Shown here in pieces: positions 13,101 through 16,100 of a stretch of DNA of 64,000 bases. Position numbers: made by a program. The stretch lies in NCBI RefSeq assembly GCF_003018255.1, contig NZ_CP027440.1; one strand, written 5' to 3'. Numbering within the stretch: position 1 is the first letter of the stretch; every line of letters begins with the position of its first letter. Source of the stretch: Escherichia coli. GTDB lineage: Bacteria > Pseudomonadota > Gammaproteobacteria > Enterobacterales > Enterobacteriaceae.

Positions 13101-16100
13101 GTATGCATGCTGGGTGGGGAAAGTATGAAGGAAAAGAAGACTGCCGCGCCGTTTGTCGTCACATTTATCTTCATTGGCTATGCAAGTCGTAATACAAGGT
13201 GGGACAAAACAGAGACACATAAGGTCTCACAAAGGTCTGCAAGGCCTCACATGTATTGAGATGTTAATAAAATGTAGACTTGTAATTTGGATATAAATGG
13301 TAGAGAAAACCTTTCCCCAAAATAAAAACGAACGTCAATGAAATCAAACGGTTGAATAAAGTTGATTTTGGCTAATAAAAAGACAATAAAATAATTTTTA
13401 TCATTAAATATCAATGAATTGAACTTAATGTTTTTATATACTGTTACGCCATATGGGCTGGACTGAAGCCGCAGACCTGATTGTTAAAGGTATGGAAGGC
13501 GCAATCAACGCCAAGACTGTAACCTATGACTTCGAACGTCTGATGGAAGGCGCTAAACTGCTGAAATGCAGCGAGTTTGGTGATGCGATCATCAAGAACA
13601 TGTAATCTCTACATGTGTTAAATATTGAAACGGGCGTATAACACGCCCGTTGTTTTATTTATGTGGATATTATTAATAGCATGTCGAGCATATTTATATG
13701 AAGCCCATTACTTGAGTCCATATGGGCATATTTTTATAATACAACTATTATGCAAACATTTATTTGGTATTTCGCTTTCTCCAGGAGGACACTCTTGACT
13801 GCTTTTGAGTAAACTCCATAAATCCTTGTTAAATGGTGCGATGTTATAAATAGTAATAGGGTATTCTTTATCCTTAAGGATAATACCAGACTTAACCGGT
13901 GTAAATATACTTCCAGGAGGGAGAAATATAGTAGATTGATACCAGATGATCATTTTCATATCACCCCATATGGCTGAAAAAGATATGCCGCATGTAGGTT
14001 GAATTAACGTGTCAATTACTATCCACTTCATTTGTTATGTCTTATCCCACGGTATTTAATATAGTTCATTAGGATGTTCATTTCTTGATTTTGCATATGA
14101 GTATATTATCCCCTCAAAAATATTAATTAAAAATTAAAACCGTTGCCTATATAAAACAAAATTTAAAGCAAGAAATCTCAATAGATATTAAACAAAATGA
14201 TATTTAGTGAAAACAATAAATTATTCACTTCGTTTTAGATTTGTTTAGCTATAATGTTATACATTCAAATGACTGAACATCATGTAATTAAAACATAGCC
14301 TTTATGCTACTTTGTGCCAATTTGCTAAATATTATGGTTGCATTTTTATATAACGATAATAATGAATATAAGCATGACATGAGAATAAGGTTTCAATTTT
14401 TGAGTTATATAGGAATGGTTAAACCCGTTCCTGACTAAAATACATATAATCGGATGATGACTAAACCAAAACACATGTGCGTTAAGTATTGAAACGGGCG
14501 TATGGCACGCCCGTTGGTTTTATAAATATGTTAACCGTTATAAAATAACGTATAGAAAGTCAAGTGATCACATTTCAAATATCAAGTTGATAGTATTGGC
14601 CTGGTGATTATTTATGGGTGGCAATAAAAAGACAGTATTTATCATCCATAGGGATAGTCTCTGCACTTTTATTTCCATTATGCTAATGTCTTACTGAATT
14701 ATGAAGCATTTTTTAAGCATCCAACTTTAGCTAGATTAATGGTTTATTATTTTCTACATCTTCAATATATAAAAGCGTATTATCAATGGCGTAGTAACTG
14801 CGTTTGTTATGATTAACATCAGTAACCCACCGGAAAACGCCCGCGTCTGCCAGTGTTGAACAGTACTCCCGAAATGTAGATTTTCCGGAAATATGAAGCA
14901 ATGCGGCCTCTTTTATTTTAGCAGGGTTCTTTTTCGTACTAACTTTTAACAGGTTCCTGGTTCCTCTTAATAACAAAACCGTGTCATCGTGAGTAATAAT
15001 TCTGATGTTATCCGTAGCCAGATAATAAATGTAATGTGCAACACGGTGATGTTTTAATTCTGAATAAAACCAGGAGAAGTTTTGCTCTTTTCTCACTTGC
15101 TCAAACATCTTTTGAAAAACAACGACCTGATCCATCAGGATAATAACCTCTTGTTAGTTGTGAGACTGCGTAGTGTGCACGATCGGTTTTACCACTTCAA
15201 TCTGGTCTGTCCTTTGGCTGTGATATGTACAAAGTGTGAAAGGGGGATTACCTGAATTCTCCCGGTGAGCATTTTGCAACGGACCAGCTCCGGTACAAAA
15301 GCTGTTGTGGGTTCAGATTATAAGATTCTGTCTAAGGGGCGGGATAAAGGTGAAATTAGGGGGCATGAAAGATGACTTTATAACCTTGCTCACCCCAGTG
15401 TTGTAAAAGTTCGTTTTGCCTTCTCGTTGGTGCCATGCCTGTCCAGACAATCAATGTTTGCGTCGGGAACAGTTCCGGGCGCGGCGATTCAATGGGATCA
15501 GCAAGAACAGAAATGTGCCATCCTGACAATGATAAACGCCATGCTTCCAGCCACAATCGTGCTCTCTCTTCAACATTCCACGCCATCAGAATGGCTTCTT
15601 TACCGGGCTTACGGCGCATTTCGAAAAGTGAGGCTGCTGCGTATTCAATTAATGCGCCGTCAAACATACTGCTCATAATGCGGGAGGTGTTGTGATCAAG
15701 CACGAGACGCTGGCGAACAGGAAGGTAAACATGATTAATCAATTGATCTACTGGGTACTCTCGACCCAGTGAAATAATTCTCGCGCGTAGTTTGGCAGGA
15801 TTAGCCATACGAAGAATTGACATCATCTCTTCTTGCAGGCGACTCCAGTCATCTTCCGTATCCTGGCTGGTGGTTTCCAGTAATGCTTTAACTTTGCCTA
15901 CAGGAACGCCATTACTTATCCAACGCTTGATCTCTTCGATGCGTTGTATGTCTTCTTCATCAAAGAGTCGGTGTCCGCCTTCACTGCGCTGTGGTTTTAA
16001 CAAACCGTAGCGGCGTTGCCAGGCCCGGAGAGTGACAGGATTAATCCCGCAACGTTCAGCAACATCACCAATGCTGTAATAAGCCACAATTCCTCCTTGC

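What the first reader, a model, noticed from the sequence alone, without database searches (positions are those of the whole stretch)
13196..13440. Putative attR arm: tandem direct repeats and IHF-like sites just inside the prophage end
About 190-220 bp inside the icd junction there are three adjacent approximately 10-bp direct repeats (aaggtctcaca, aaggtctgca, aggcctcaca) with a further aaggt immediately upstream. Between them and the core are two matches to the IHF consensus WATCAANNNNTTR, in very AT-rich DNA. This layout resembles arm-type integrase or Xis binding sites and IHF sites of a tyrosine-recombinase att site, which would suggest the excision sites are retained even though the tail module looks defective.
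Basis: inference. Interest (0 to 1): 0.45.

Follow-up and report, generated by a model that had tools for sequence, protein, structure and literature searches.

The report
Phage-21 attR arm; repeats are a hairpin
This stretch is the already-characterised right attachment arm of a phage-21-like prophage in the icd gene, but the three "direct repeats" are not integrase or Xis sites: they are the stem of a conserved hairpin that sits at the 3' end of integrase transcription units in many phages. The real integrase arm site is a different 12-mer, 60 bp further in.

Summary
The repeats lie at 13221-13251. Two matches to the IHF consensus lie at 13342-54 and 13409-21, and two in this AT-rich arm is unlikely by chance (P about 0.003).

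The locus is the P arm (attR) of a phage-21-type att site in icd. It is 92% identical to phage 21 attP. In a near-identical prophage (E. coli JNE23-011), Int is 377/380 and Xis 78/78 identical to phage 21.

The repeats are not arm sites. The phage-21 arm motif YYTTCCCCAAAA occurs three times in tandem in attL, next to int.

The repeats are the two arms and loop of a hairpin on the minus (int-sense) strand, followed by a U-rich tail (13201-13254). The same roughly 55-nt element lies beside attP in SfII, SfV and P22-like phages whose Int and Xis are unrelated. It also lies 24 nt after the stop codon of P4-type integrase genes, and a diverged copy sits just beyond lambda tI/sib.

Most likely it is a terminator or RNA 3'-end element for int transcription. 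The finding itself is ordinary and largely already known. The hairpin family has no Rfam match and is mildly interesting.

The parts
13215..13254 (-). In RNA sense, the outer 5' arm is 13254-13245, the inner 5' arm 13243-13237, the loop 13236-13233, the inner 3' arm 13232-13226 and the outer 3' arm 13224-13215.
   Evidence: Folded on the minus strand: -17.2 kcal/mol, z = -2.6. Folded on the plus strand: z = -1.2. The phage 21 copy gives -23.5 kcal/mol, z = -4.7, and the SfII copy -18.9 kcal/mol, z = -3.1. In the close family 93.6% of cells are paired. In the wide family two pairs show compensatory changes.
13201..13214 (-). Conserved U-rich tail after the hairpin (CUCUGUUUUGUCCC). The left edge of the conserved att block falls here.
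   Evidence: A terminator-like call on the minus strand covers 13228->13212 plus TGTTTTGT. At least five different left flanks diverge immediately after GGGACAAAAC.
13311..13322 (+). The true arm-type integrase site of the P arm: the dodecamer CTTTCCCCAAAA.
   Evidence: It is the only perfect match to YYTTCCCCAAAA in the window. Three tandem copies lie in attL next to int (L004 361-397). The phage 21 record OL657228.1 annotates this consensus as the attP subsites. The site is invariant in 15 P arms.
13342..13354 (+). IHF-like site 1 (AATCAAACGGTTG), about 90-100 bp from the junction.
   Evidence: It is invariant at all consensus positions in 15 related P arms.
13409..13421 (+). IHF-like site 2 (TATCAATGAATTG), about 21-33 bp from the junction.
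   Evidence: It is less conserved: phage 21 has TATCAGCGAGTTG, one consensus mismatch.
13442..13457 (+). The left end of the phage/host identity, at the att core region (TGTTACGCCATATGGG).
   Evidence: The same 16-mer is at attL, L004 132-147. The sequences to its left are unrelated.
13442..13605 (+). The displaced original 3' end of icd (pseudogene). Its terminator follows at 13629-13651.
   Evidence: RefSeq annotation of the identical sequence and the terminator scan.
13125..13259 (+). A small ORF of 44 codons (50 if counted from 13107) whose 3' third runs through the hairpin. It is probably a real small gene in this context, but it is not the reason the hairpin is conserved.
   Evidence: Homologous ORFs exist in phage 21 (CPT_21_32) and lambda (from 27396). 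Between the window and phage 21 there are 5 synonymous and 3 non-synonymous differences before the element and 3 and 3 inside it. The ORF is absent, or is closed by TAG, in other contexts that keep the hairpin.

Best explanation
The interval 13196-13440 is the P arm of a phage-21-type attR in icd.

Its recombination signals are the single arm-type dodecamer CTTTCCCCAAAA (13311-13322) and probably two IHF sites (13342-54 and 13409-21). The dodecamer is the partner of three tandem copies in attL.

The three 'direct repeats' lie outside that set of sites. They are the two arms and loop of a roughly 40-nt hairpin plus U-rich tail (13201-13254), read on the minus strand, which is the direction in which int is transcribed across attP in the circular phage. 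The hairpin most likely ends or stabilises leftward int transcripts, acting as an intrinsic-terminator-like or 3'-end element.

In the prophage the hairpin is separated from int, as lambda's sib is, so it could also allow regulation that depends on whether the phage is integrated. It looks like tandem direct repeats only because each arm contains the near-palindrome AGG(C/T)CT flanked by CACA/TGTG.

Shown here: the identity of the locus, the dodecamers, the folding, the conservation and the linkage to int genes. Inferred: termination or RNA processing, and IHF binding.
For: Locus identity:
- The arm is 91.8% identical to phage 21 attP.
- Int is 377/380 and Xis 78/78 identical to phage 21 in the proxy genome.

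Arm-type sites:
- There are three dodecamers in attL and one in the window. No other perfect copy occurs in about 104 kb.

Folding:
- The hairpin forms only on the minus strand.
- The scan tool reports a terminator-like site there.
- NC_021857.1 annotates the homologous SfII segment as a putative rho-independent terminator.

Distribution:
- The element occurs in 116 or more IMG/VR stretches and, for the wider family, in 120 or more.
- It lies beside the icd-type attP, the thrW-type attP and a third attP type.
- Phage 21 Int and SfII Int share only 27% identity, over the catalytic part alone. The two Xis proteins are unrelated.

Linkage to int:
- 137 elements had at least 1.2 kb of upstream sequence available.
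- 70 of them have a co-oriented tyrosine recombinase gene ending upstream.
- 42 of those are P4-type integrases whose stop codon is 24 nt before the hairpin.

Structure conservation:
- Pair 6 switches between C-G (45 sequences) and U-A (13). Pair 9 switches between A-U (48) and G-C (5).
- Permuting the 5' arms among sequences never reached the observed pairing (0 of 2000).

Boundary:
- The conserved 21-type att block starts exactly at the end of the hairpin tail, with at least five different flanks beyond it.
Against: - No transcript or termination data exist for this element.
- The U-tract starts 4 nt after the long stem and is interrupted. It directly follows only an alternative 5-bp stem.
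- Covariation in the close family does not exceed the shuffles. In the wide family the search patterns partly fixed the 3' arm.
- Pairing favours the int-sense strand only modestly: 81.3% against 77.2%.
- The element is unusually conserved in sequence for a plain terminator. This includes its tail, TCTCAGTTTTGTCTCA.
- In lambda it aligns with a second hairpin (27477-27520), not with tI/sib itself.
- 67 of the 137 elements had no recognised int gene upstream. Many of these are prophage ends, but this was not resolved.
- attL and int were examined in a proxy genome, not in the window's own genome.
- That the repeats lie outside the minimal attP rests on my memory of Wang et al. 1997, which I could not read.
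Confidence: 0.62

Rival explanations
1. One reading: the three repeats are arm-type Int sites or a Xis array like lambda's X1-X1.5-X2, and they help assemble the excisive intasome.
For: There are two good copies 20 bp apart with a weaker middle copy. That is the spacing of lambda X1 and X2, which start at 27632 and 27652. The repeats lie in the P arm, where Xis sites are expected. Phage 21 Xis resembles lambda Xis (my own reading of the sequence; the OL657228.1 annotation gives an InterPro excisionase-like domain).
Against: - The motif is absent from attL.
- The real arm motif is a different dodecamer.
- The block lies distal to the only P-arm dodecamer.
- The same block accompanies unrelated Int and Xis proteins and P4-type integrases.
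- Lambda's homologous block is not where lambda Xis binds.
- 6 of 31 positions differ from phage 21 although Xis is identical.
Confidence: 0.05
2. The block is conserved simply because it encodes the C-terminus of the small protein at 13125-13259. The repeat and hairpin potential are incidental.
For: The ORF, its start and its stop position are conserved in phage 21 and in thrW-type contexts. 71 of 128 elements have this ORF's sequence as their cargo-side flank. The changes before the element lean synonymous.
Against: - Inside the element there are 3 synonymous and 3 non-synonymous changes.
- Four element variants introduce a TAG in this frame (L012, L061, L104, L084).
- The SfII, Kati, L022, L060 and P4-integrase contexts keep the element without the ORF.
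- No PHROG family matches the ORF.
Confidence: 0.12
3. The near-palindrome is a DNA site. It could be an operator for an unknown dimeric protein, or a shared 'linker' sequence that promotes homologous exchange of int-att cassettes between phages.
For: In the wide family both strands can pair almost equally well. Sequence conservation is high, including in the tail. The element sits exactly on a mosaic boundary.
Against: No candidate binding protein is linked to it. The window and SfII types rely on G-U pairs that exist only in int-sense RNA. The one-sided U-rich tail and the fixed orientation relative to int fit an RNA role better.
Confidence: 0.12
4. The repeats are a chance quasi-repeat in non-functional DNA.
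For: The motif is short, and degenerate matches occur at the chance rate in the window.
Against: The block is conserved in hundreds of phage contigs, across different flanks and integrase types.
Confidence: 0.02

Closest known systems
Phage 21 attP / attR in icd (Schneider 1992 thesis; Wang et al. 1997, J Bacteriol 179:5705, reference confirmed; GenBank M61865.1 and OL657228.1)
   Same: The integration point in icd is the same. The P arm is 91.8% identical. The dodecamer arm motif is the same, with three copies next to int and one in the P arm. Int is 99% and Xis 100% identical. The outermost dodecamers span 397 bp in phage 21 (L001 3260-3656). From memory, that fits the published minimal attP of 366-418 bp.
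   Different: There is about 8% sequence divergence. IHF-like site 2 is a better consensus match here than in phage 21. The hairpin allele differs. The cargo to the left differs: DUF3800 and other genes here, sitABCD in phage 21.
Lambda attP P arm (P1-H1-P2-X1/X2-F-H2) and the tI/sib retroregulator just outside it
   Same: The layout matches: an arm-type site, then IHF-like sites at about -95 and -27, with RNA hairpins on the int-sense strand immediately outside the outermost arm site. These hairpins are separated from int on integration (sib function from PMC5300877 and PMC2951348). Window 13063-13191 is 83.6% identical to lambda 27331-27464.
   Different: The P arms show no detectable sequence similarity. 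The arm motif is unrelated. The window's hairpin aligns with lambda's second hairpin (27477-27520), not with the tI/sib stem (27545-27578 plus U6), and the window has no copy of the latter. No RNase III or termination data exist for it.
'Putative rho-independent terminator' between attP and gtrA in Shigella phage SfII (NC_021857.1 24720-24766) and its copies in SfI, SfIV, SfV and Kati/2G7b
   Same: It is the same element, 85% identical over 60 nt, with the same fold, the same strand relative to int, and a position on the far side of attP from int.
   Different: It sits beside a thrW-type core with an unrelated Int and Xis, only about 70-116 bp from the core rather than about 190-240 bp.

Membership tests
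Arm-type Int binding sites (heterobivalent tyrosine recombinase att site) | The same short motif recurs on both arms (P and P') of the att site. | tested here: not met
By contrast, YYTTCCCCAAAA is present three times in attL and once in the window arm.
Arm-type Int binding sites (heterobivalent tyrosine recombinase att site) | The motif is specific to one integrase's arm-binding domain. | tested here: not met
   The repeat block is shared with phages whose Int matches phage 21 Int only in the catalytic domain (27%), and with P4-type integrases that carry Arm-DNA-bind_3.
Arm-type Int binding sites (heterobivalent tyrosine recombinase att site) | The motif lies within the minimal functional attP. 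| tested here: inconclusive
   The repeats are 60-90 bp outside the outermost P-arm dodecamer. The span between the outermost dodecamers in phage 21 is 397 bp. That fits the 366-418 bp minimal attP I recall from Wang et al. 1997, but I could not read the paper.
Arm-type Int binding sites (heterobivalent tyrosine recombinase att site) | Int N-domain protects the site. | not testable with these tools
   This needs footprinting or EMSA.
Xis (RDF) binding array | Tandem sites lie between an arm-type site and the core, next to the Int arm site used in excision. | tested here: not met
   The repeats (13221-13251) lie distal to the only P-arm dodecamer (13311-13322).
Xis (RDF) binding array | The sites track the cognate Xis protein. 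| tested here: not met
   The block occurs with an unrelated SfII Xis (no alignment). In lambda its homologue is about 110-175 bp away from the X1/X2 sites at 27632 and 27652. 6 of 31 positions differ from phage 21 although Xis is 78/78 identical.
IHF binding sites | A match to WATCAANNNNTTR, more often than the local composition predicts. | tested here: met
   There are two perfect matches. P(two or more) = 0.0028 in local dinucleotide shuffles.
IHF binding sites | The sites are conserved among related att arms. | tested here: inconclusive
   Site 1 is invariant at its consensus positions. Site 2 varies, and in phage 21 itself it loses a consensus base.
IHF binding sites | IHF binds and bends the DNA. 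| not testable with these tools
   This needs EMSA or footprinting.
Phage-21-type att site in icd | The junction lies inside the icd 3' end, with a duplicated icd 3' fragment, and the phage 21 Int/Xis and dodecamers are present. | tested here: met
   The attL side was examined in the proxy genome JNE23-011.
Intrinsic terminator / int 3'-end hairpin | A stable stem-loop on the transcribed (int-sense) strand. | tested here: met
   z-scores of -2.6 to -4.7 on the minus strand in three of the four phage copies folded (the P22-like BTP1 copy gives -1.6), against -1.2 on the plus strand.
Intrinsic terminator / int 3'-end hairpin | A U-tract immediately 3' of the stem. | tested here: inconclusive
   CUCUGUUUUGU starts 4 nt after the long stem. 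It directly follows only an alternative 5-bp stem, which is the one the scan reports.
Intrinsic terminator / int 3'-end hairpin | The hairpin lies downstream of, and is co-oriented with, the gene it ends. | tested here: met
   70 of 137 elements have a co-oriented tyrosine recombinase gene ending 24 to about 470 nt upstream.
Intrinsic terminator / int 3'-end hairpin | Base pairing is maintained through sequence change. | tested here: inconclusive
   Two pairs show compensatory switches, and the permutation test gave 0 of 2000. The close family does not exceed the shuffles, and the search patterns partly fixed the 3' arm.
Intrinsic terminator / int 3'-end hairpin | Transcripts end or are processed there. 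| not testable with these tools
   This needs Term-seq, 3' RACE or reporters.
Lambda sib/tI retroregulator | Homology to the tI/sib stem itself. | tested here: not met
   The element aligns with lambda's second hairpin (27477-27520), not with the stem at 27545-27578 that is followed by U6. That the latter is tI is my own knowledge.

The most novel reading that the evidence does not exclude
The hairpin is one member of a large, uncatalogued family of roughly 55-nt RNA elements. Its consensus is GCACAAAGCCTTGCAA-NCCN-GTGCAAAGCTTTGTGTG followed by TCTCAGTTTTGTCTCA. The family marks the 3' end of integrase transcription units in lambdoid phages, P22-like phages and P4-type islands. It may act as more than a plain terminator. 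It could be a sib-like retroregulatory or RNA-stability signal whose linkage to int is broken on integration in the lambda-type layout, or a shared cassette boundary that promotes int-att exchange.
Probability: 0.35. Interest if true: 0.45.

Novelty: already known. Interest (0 to 1): 0.2.

Why it matters
For the finding as written, it matters little. The att site of phage 21 was dissected in the 1990s, and this is a 92%-identical copy. The work corrects which bases are the arm sites, and that matters to anyone designing attR/attL probes or excision assays for icd prophages.

The by-product is more useful. A highly conserved hairpin follows integrase genes of at least three unrelated families. 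No Rfam family matched it in the window or in the three loci scanned. If it controls int mRNA fate, it would extend lambda's sib idea to many mobile elements. It would also give annotators a marker for the outer edge of int-att cassettes.

Tried and rejected
- Reading Wang et al. 1997 by PMID and by PMC id: not held. Its existence was confirmed only through a reference list.
- Reading Schindler & Echols 1981: not held.
- Three literature searches for phage 21 att arm sites or the lambda tI coordinates: nothing usable.
- Searching the literature for the element's literal sequence: no hits.
- Rfam at permissive thresholds on the window, lambda, SfII and a P4-type locus: no family covers the element.
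- Lambda records J02459.1, NC_001416.1 and OM418625.1: none annotates tI/sib.
- Local alignment of the window P arm against the lambda P arm: no better than shuffles, score 27 against 26 +/- 4.
- Scan for lambda-type Xis sites (TATGTNGTNTNTT): only weak 7-8 of 10 matches, so no claim is made.
- PHROGs for the small ORF, the antisense ORF 13250-13414 and DUF3800: no families.
- An inverted copy of the dodecamer core, TGGGGAAAG at 13115-13123, considered as a possible distal arm site. Rejected because lambda has nearly the same bases in front of its homologous small ORF, and other phage-21-type arms lack it.
- Covariation in the close family alone: uninformative.
- Assuming the window is strain JNE23-011: rejected, because the window carries a deletion that this strain lacks.
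Full report
**1. The observation**

AAGGTCTCACA lies at 13221-31, AAGGTCTGCA at 13232-41 and (A)AGGCCTCACA at 13241/2-51. The repeat finder pairs the two outer units (10/11 identical, 20 bp apart), and the middle unit is weaker. The extra "aaggt" is 20 bp upstream of the first unit, not adjacent to it.

Two perfect matches to WATCAANNNNTTR lie at 13342-54 and 13409-21. The whole window has 9 matches against 3.7 expected. In 20,000 dinucleotide-preserving shuffles of the AT-rich stretch 13253-13440, two or more matches arose with P = 0.0028. 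The phage/host junction is at about 13442, so the stated distances of 190-220 bp are right.

**2. What the locus is**

Window 13055-13650 is 91.8% identical to the phage 21 att region in M61865.1 and OL657228.1. Window 12950-13650 is 100% identical to E. coli JNE23-011. In that genome a lambdoid prophage of about 60 kb lies between an intact icd and the displaced icd 3' fragment, and iraM follows, as in K-12. At the far end its integrase is 377/380 identical and its Xis 78/78 identical to those of phage 21.

There is a caveat. The window is identical to JNE23-011 only from 9429 onward. Upstream it lacks about 2.67 kb of the tail genes K, I and J, which leaves a 485-aa J remnant. It also means that attL and int were examined in a proxy genome, not in the window's own.

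**3. The real arm-type sites**

The phage 21 record annotates the attP arm subsites as three tandem copies of YYTTCCCCAAAA next to int. The proxy attL has exactly these: TCTTCCCCAAAA, CTTTCCCCAAAA and CCTTCCCCAAAA at L004 361-397, just before the int stop.

The window has one perfect copy, CTTTCCCCAAAA, at 13311-13322. No other perfect copy exists in the 64 kb window or in the 40 kb of the proxy prophage. The copy at 13311-13322 is invariant in 15 distinct phage-21-type P arms.

In phage 21 the outermost dodecamers span 397 bp (L001 3260-3656). From memory, Wang et al. 1997 delimited the minimal attP to 366-418 bp and said it includes the outermost dodecamers. I could confirm only that the paper exists. 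On that basis the repeats lie 60-90 bp outside the site needed for integration.

**4. The IHF-like sites**

Both are more than chance. Site 1 is invariant at its consensus positions across related arms. Site 2 is variable and is imperfect in phage 21 itself. Their positions, about -95 and -27 from the junction, resemble H1 and H2 of lambda. Binding is inferred, not shown.

**5. What the repeats are**

*Folding.* On the minus strand the block folds into a hairpin of 10 + 7 bp with a 4-nt loop (window 13215-13254), followed by CUCUGUUUUGUCCC (13214-13201). The energy is -17.2 kcal/mol with z = -2.6. The plus strand gives z = -1.2 and no such hairpin, because several pairs are G-U.

The three "repeats" map onto the stem. 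Unit 3 is the outer 5' arm, unit 2 is the inner 5' arm plus the loop, and unit 1 is the 3' arm. They look like direct repeats because each contains AGG(C/T)CT flanked by CACA/TGTG. The phage 21 copy reads aaggcctcgca / atggcttgca / aggccacaca. It is a poorer repeat but a better hairpin, with a perfect 10-bp inner stem, -23.5 kcal/mol and z = -4.7. The scan tool reports a terminator-like site inside the element on the minus strand.

*Distribution.* The 60-nt block (window 13200-13260) is 85% identical to a segment of the Shigella phages SfII, SfI, SfIV and SfV and the coliphages Kati, 2G7b and others. In NC_021857.1 that segment is annotated as a putative rho-independent terminator, on the far side of attP from int. 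Those phages use the 46-bp thrW core (PMC3636060). Their Int matches phage 21 Int only over the catalytic region (27%), and their Xis is unrelated.

One pattern scan of IMG/VR found the element in 116 stretches. Together they give 61 distinct hairpins with the consensus GCACAAAGCCTTGCAA-NCCN-GTGCAAAGCTTTGTGTG followed by TCTCAGTTTTGTCTCA.

*Linkage to int.* Of 137 elements with at least 1.2 kb of upstream sequence, 70 have a co-oriented tyrosine recombinase gene ending upstream:

| Integrase type | Elements | Distance from int stop to hairpin |
|---|---|---|
| SfII-type | 24 | about 130 nt, with attP in between |
| phage-21-type | 4 | about 460 nt |
| P4-type | 42 | 24 nt |

The P4-type integrase is confirmed by Pfam (Phage_integrase 5e-39 plus Arm-DNA-bind_3). 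L161 is an example, with a tRNA gene, then int, then the hairpin.

*Mosaic boundary.* Among phage-21-type arms, the conserved block that travels with the att site begins exactly at the end of the hairpin tail (about 13201). At least five unrelated sequences lie beyond it.

*Pairing.* In the close family 93.6% of cells pair, against 20-64% when the partners are slid, but covariation does not exceed the shuffles. In the wide family pair 6 switches between C-G (45) and U-A (13). Pair 9 switches between A-U (48) and G-C (5). Permuting the 5' arms among sequences never reaches the observed pairing (0 of 2000). Pairing is 81.3% in int sense and 77.2% in the opposite sense. This supports a conserved stem but is not decisive, because the search patterns partly fixed the 3' arm.

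*The coding alternative.* A small ORF (13125-13259, or 13107-13259) runs through the hairpin. It has homologues in phage 21 (CPT_21_32) and in lambda from 27396. Between the window and phage 21 there are 5 synonymous and 3 non-synonymous differences before the element, one of the latter being ATG/GTG at the start codon. Inside the element there are 3 and 3. Four variants put a TAG in this frame. Many contexts (SfII, Kati, L022-type, L060 and the P4-integrase loci) keep the element without the ORF. Coding therefore does not explain the conservation of the element.

**6. Relation to lambda**

Window 13063-13191 is 83.6% identical to lambda 27331-27464. Lambda's leftward RNA folds into two hairpins just outside the P1 arm site (27583-27602). 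One is a stem at 27545-27578 followed by U6, which I take from my own knowledge to be tI/sib. The other is at 27477-27520.

The window's element aligns with the second hairpin, and the P22-like BTP1 copy bridges the two. The element is therefore a neighbour of sib, not sib itself. Lambda's sib lowers Int expression from pL transcripts, and integration separates it from int (PMC5300877; PMC2951348). The geometry here is the same, but no processing data exist.

**7. Mechanism and rivals**

*Best reading (0.62).* This is a phage-21-type attR P arm with one arm-type dodecamer and probably two IHF sites. The repeats are a terminator-like or 3'-end hairpin for int-sense transcription, outside the recombination sites.

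*Rivals.*
- Int or Xis sites (0.05). This is contradicted by the attL comparison, by the position distal to the arm site, by the association with unrelated Int and Xis proteins, and by variation despite an identical Xis.
- The C-terminus of the small protein (0.12).
- A palindromic DNA site or cassette-exchange linker (0.12).
- Chance (0.02).

**8. Novelty**

The att site is already known. The hairpin is annotated as a putative terminator in one phage record, but no Rfam family matched it in any sequence scanned. Its breadth and its link to three integrase families appear not to have been described, although my literature access was limited.

The finding as written scores low. The family is a modest lead.

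Noticed in passing
window about 1959-4132: The window lacks about 2.67 kb present in all closest relatives (JNE23-011 and others). The deletion removes the 3' end of the K (C40 peptidase) gene, gene I and the 5' two-thirds of J. It leaves a 485-aa J remnant where relatives have 1132 aa. The prophage cannot build a tail tip.
   Followed up: partly
L004 24925-35834 (proxy genome JNE23-011, outside the window): The portal gene of the same prophage is split by a 10.9 kb element that carries its own integrase, primase, capsid, decoration protein and small terminase. It looks like the helper-embedded PICIs described for icd prophages in PMC10111431.
   Followed up: partly
L004 3156-3836 (proxy genome): The lambda exo homologue is annotated as a pseudogene with an internal stop, a further sign of prophage decay.
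   Followed up: no
window 13125-13259 (+); lambda from 27396; L001 3074-3208: A small ORF (MKEKKTAAPFVVTFIFIGYASRN...) is conserved between this prophage, phage 21 and lambda. Its changes lean synonymous in the N-terminal part. It is convergent with int-sense transcription. It is unannotated in RefSeq and has no PHROG match. The lambda-derived record MF374379.1 annotates an 'antisense RNA' on this strand over the homologous region.
   Followed up: partly
L161 1009-2463 and 41 similar IMG/VR loci: The same hairpin family sits 24 nt after the stop codon of P4-type integrase genes that follow a tRNA gene. No Rfam family covers the element.
   Followed up: partly
window 13251-13285 and 13351-13370: ATGT recurs at 13251, 13261 and 13272, about one helical turn apart. 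A tandem GTTGAATAAA/GTTGATTTTG lies between the dodecamer and IHF-like site 2. Both stretches are invariant among phage-21-type arms. They are candidate Xis or accessory sites, but matches to the lambda Xis consensus are weak.
   Followed up: no
window 13115-13123: TGGGGAAAG is a perfect inverted copy of the dodecamer core, 187 bp to its left. It overlaps the likely ribosome-binding site of the small ORF and is nearly conserved in lambda. It is missing from other phage-21-type arms, so it is probably not an arm site.
   Followed up: partly
window 13629-13651 and 13708-14031: The icd terminator stem is flanked by A-rich sequence on one side and T-rich on the other, so it could act in both directions. 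iraM is transcribed toward the prophage end. Read-in from the host side would meet this terminator first and then the hairpin.
   Followed up: no
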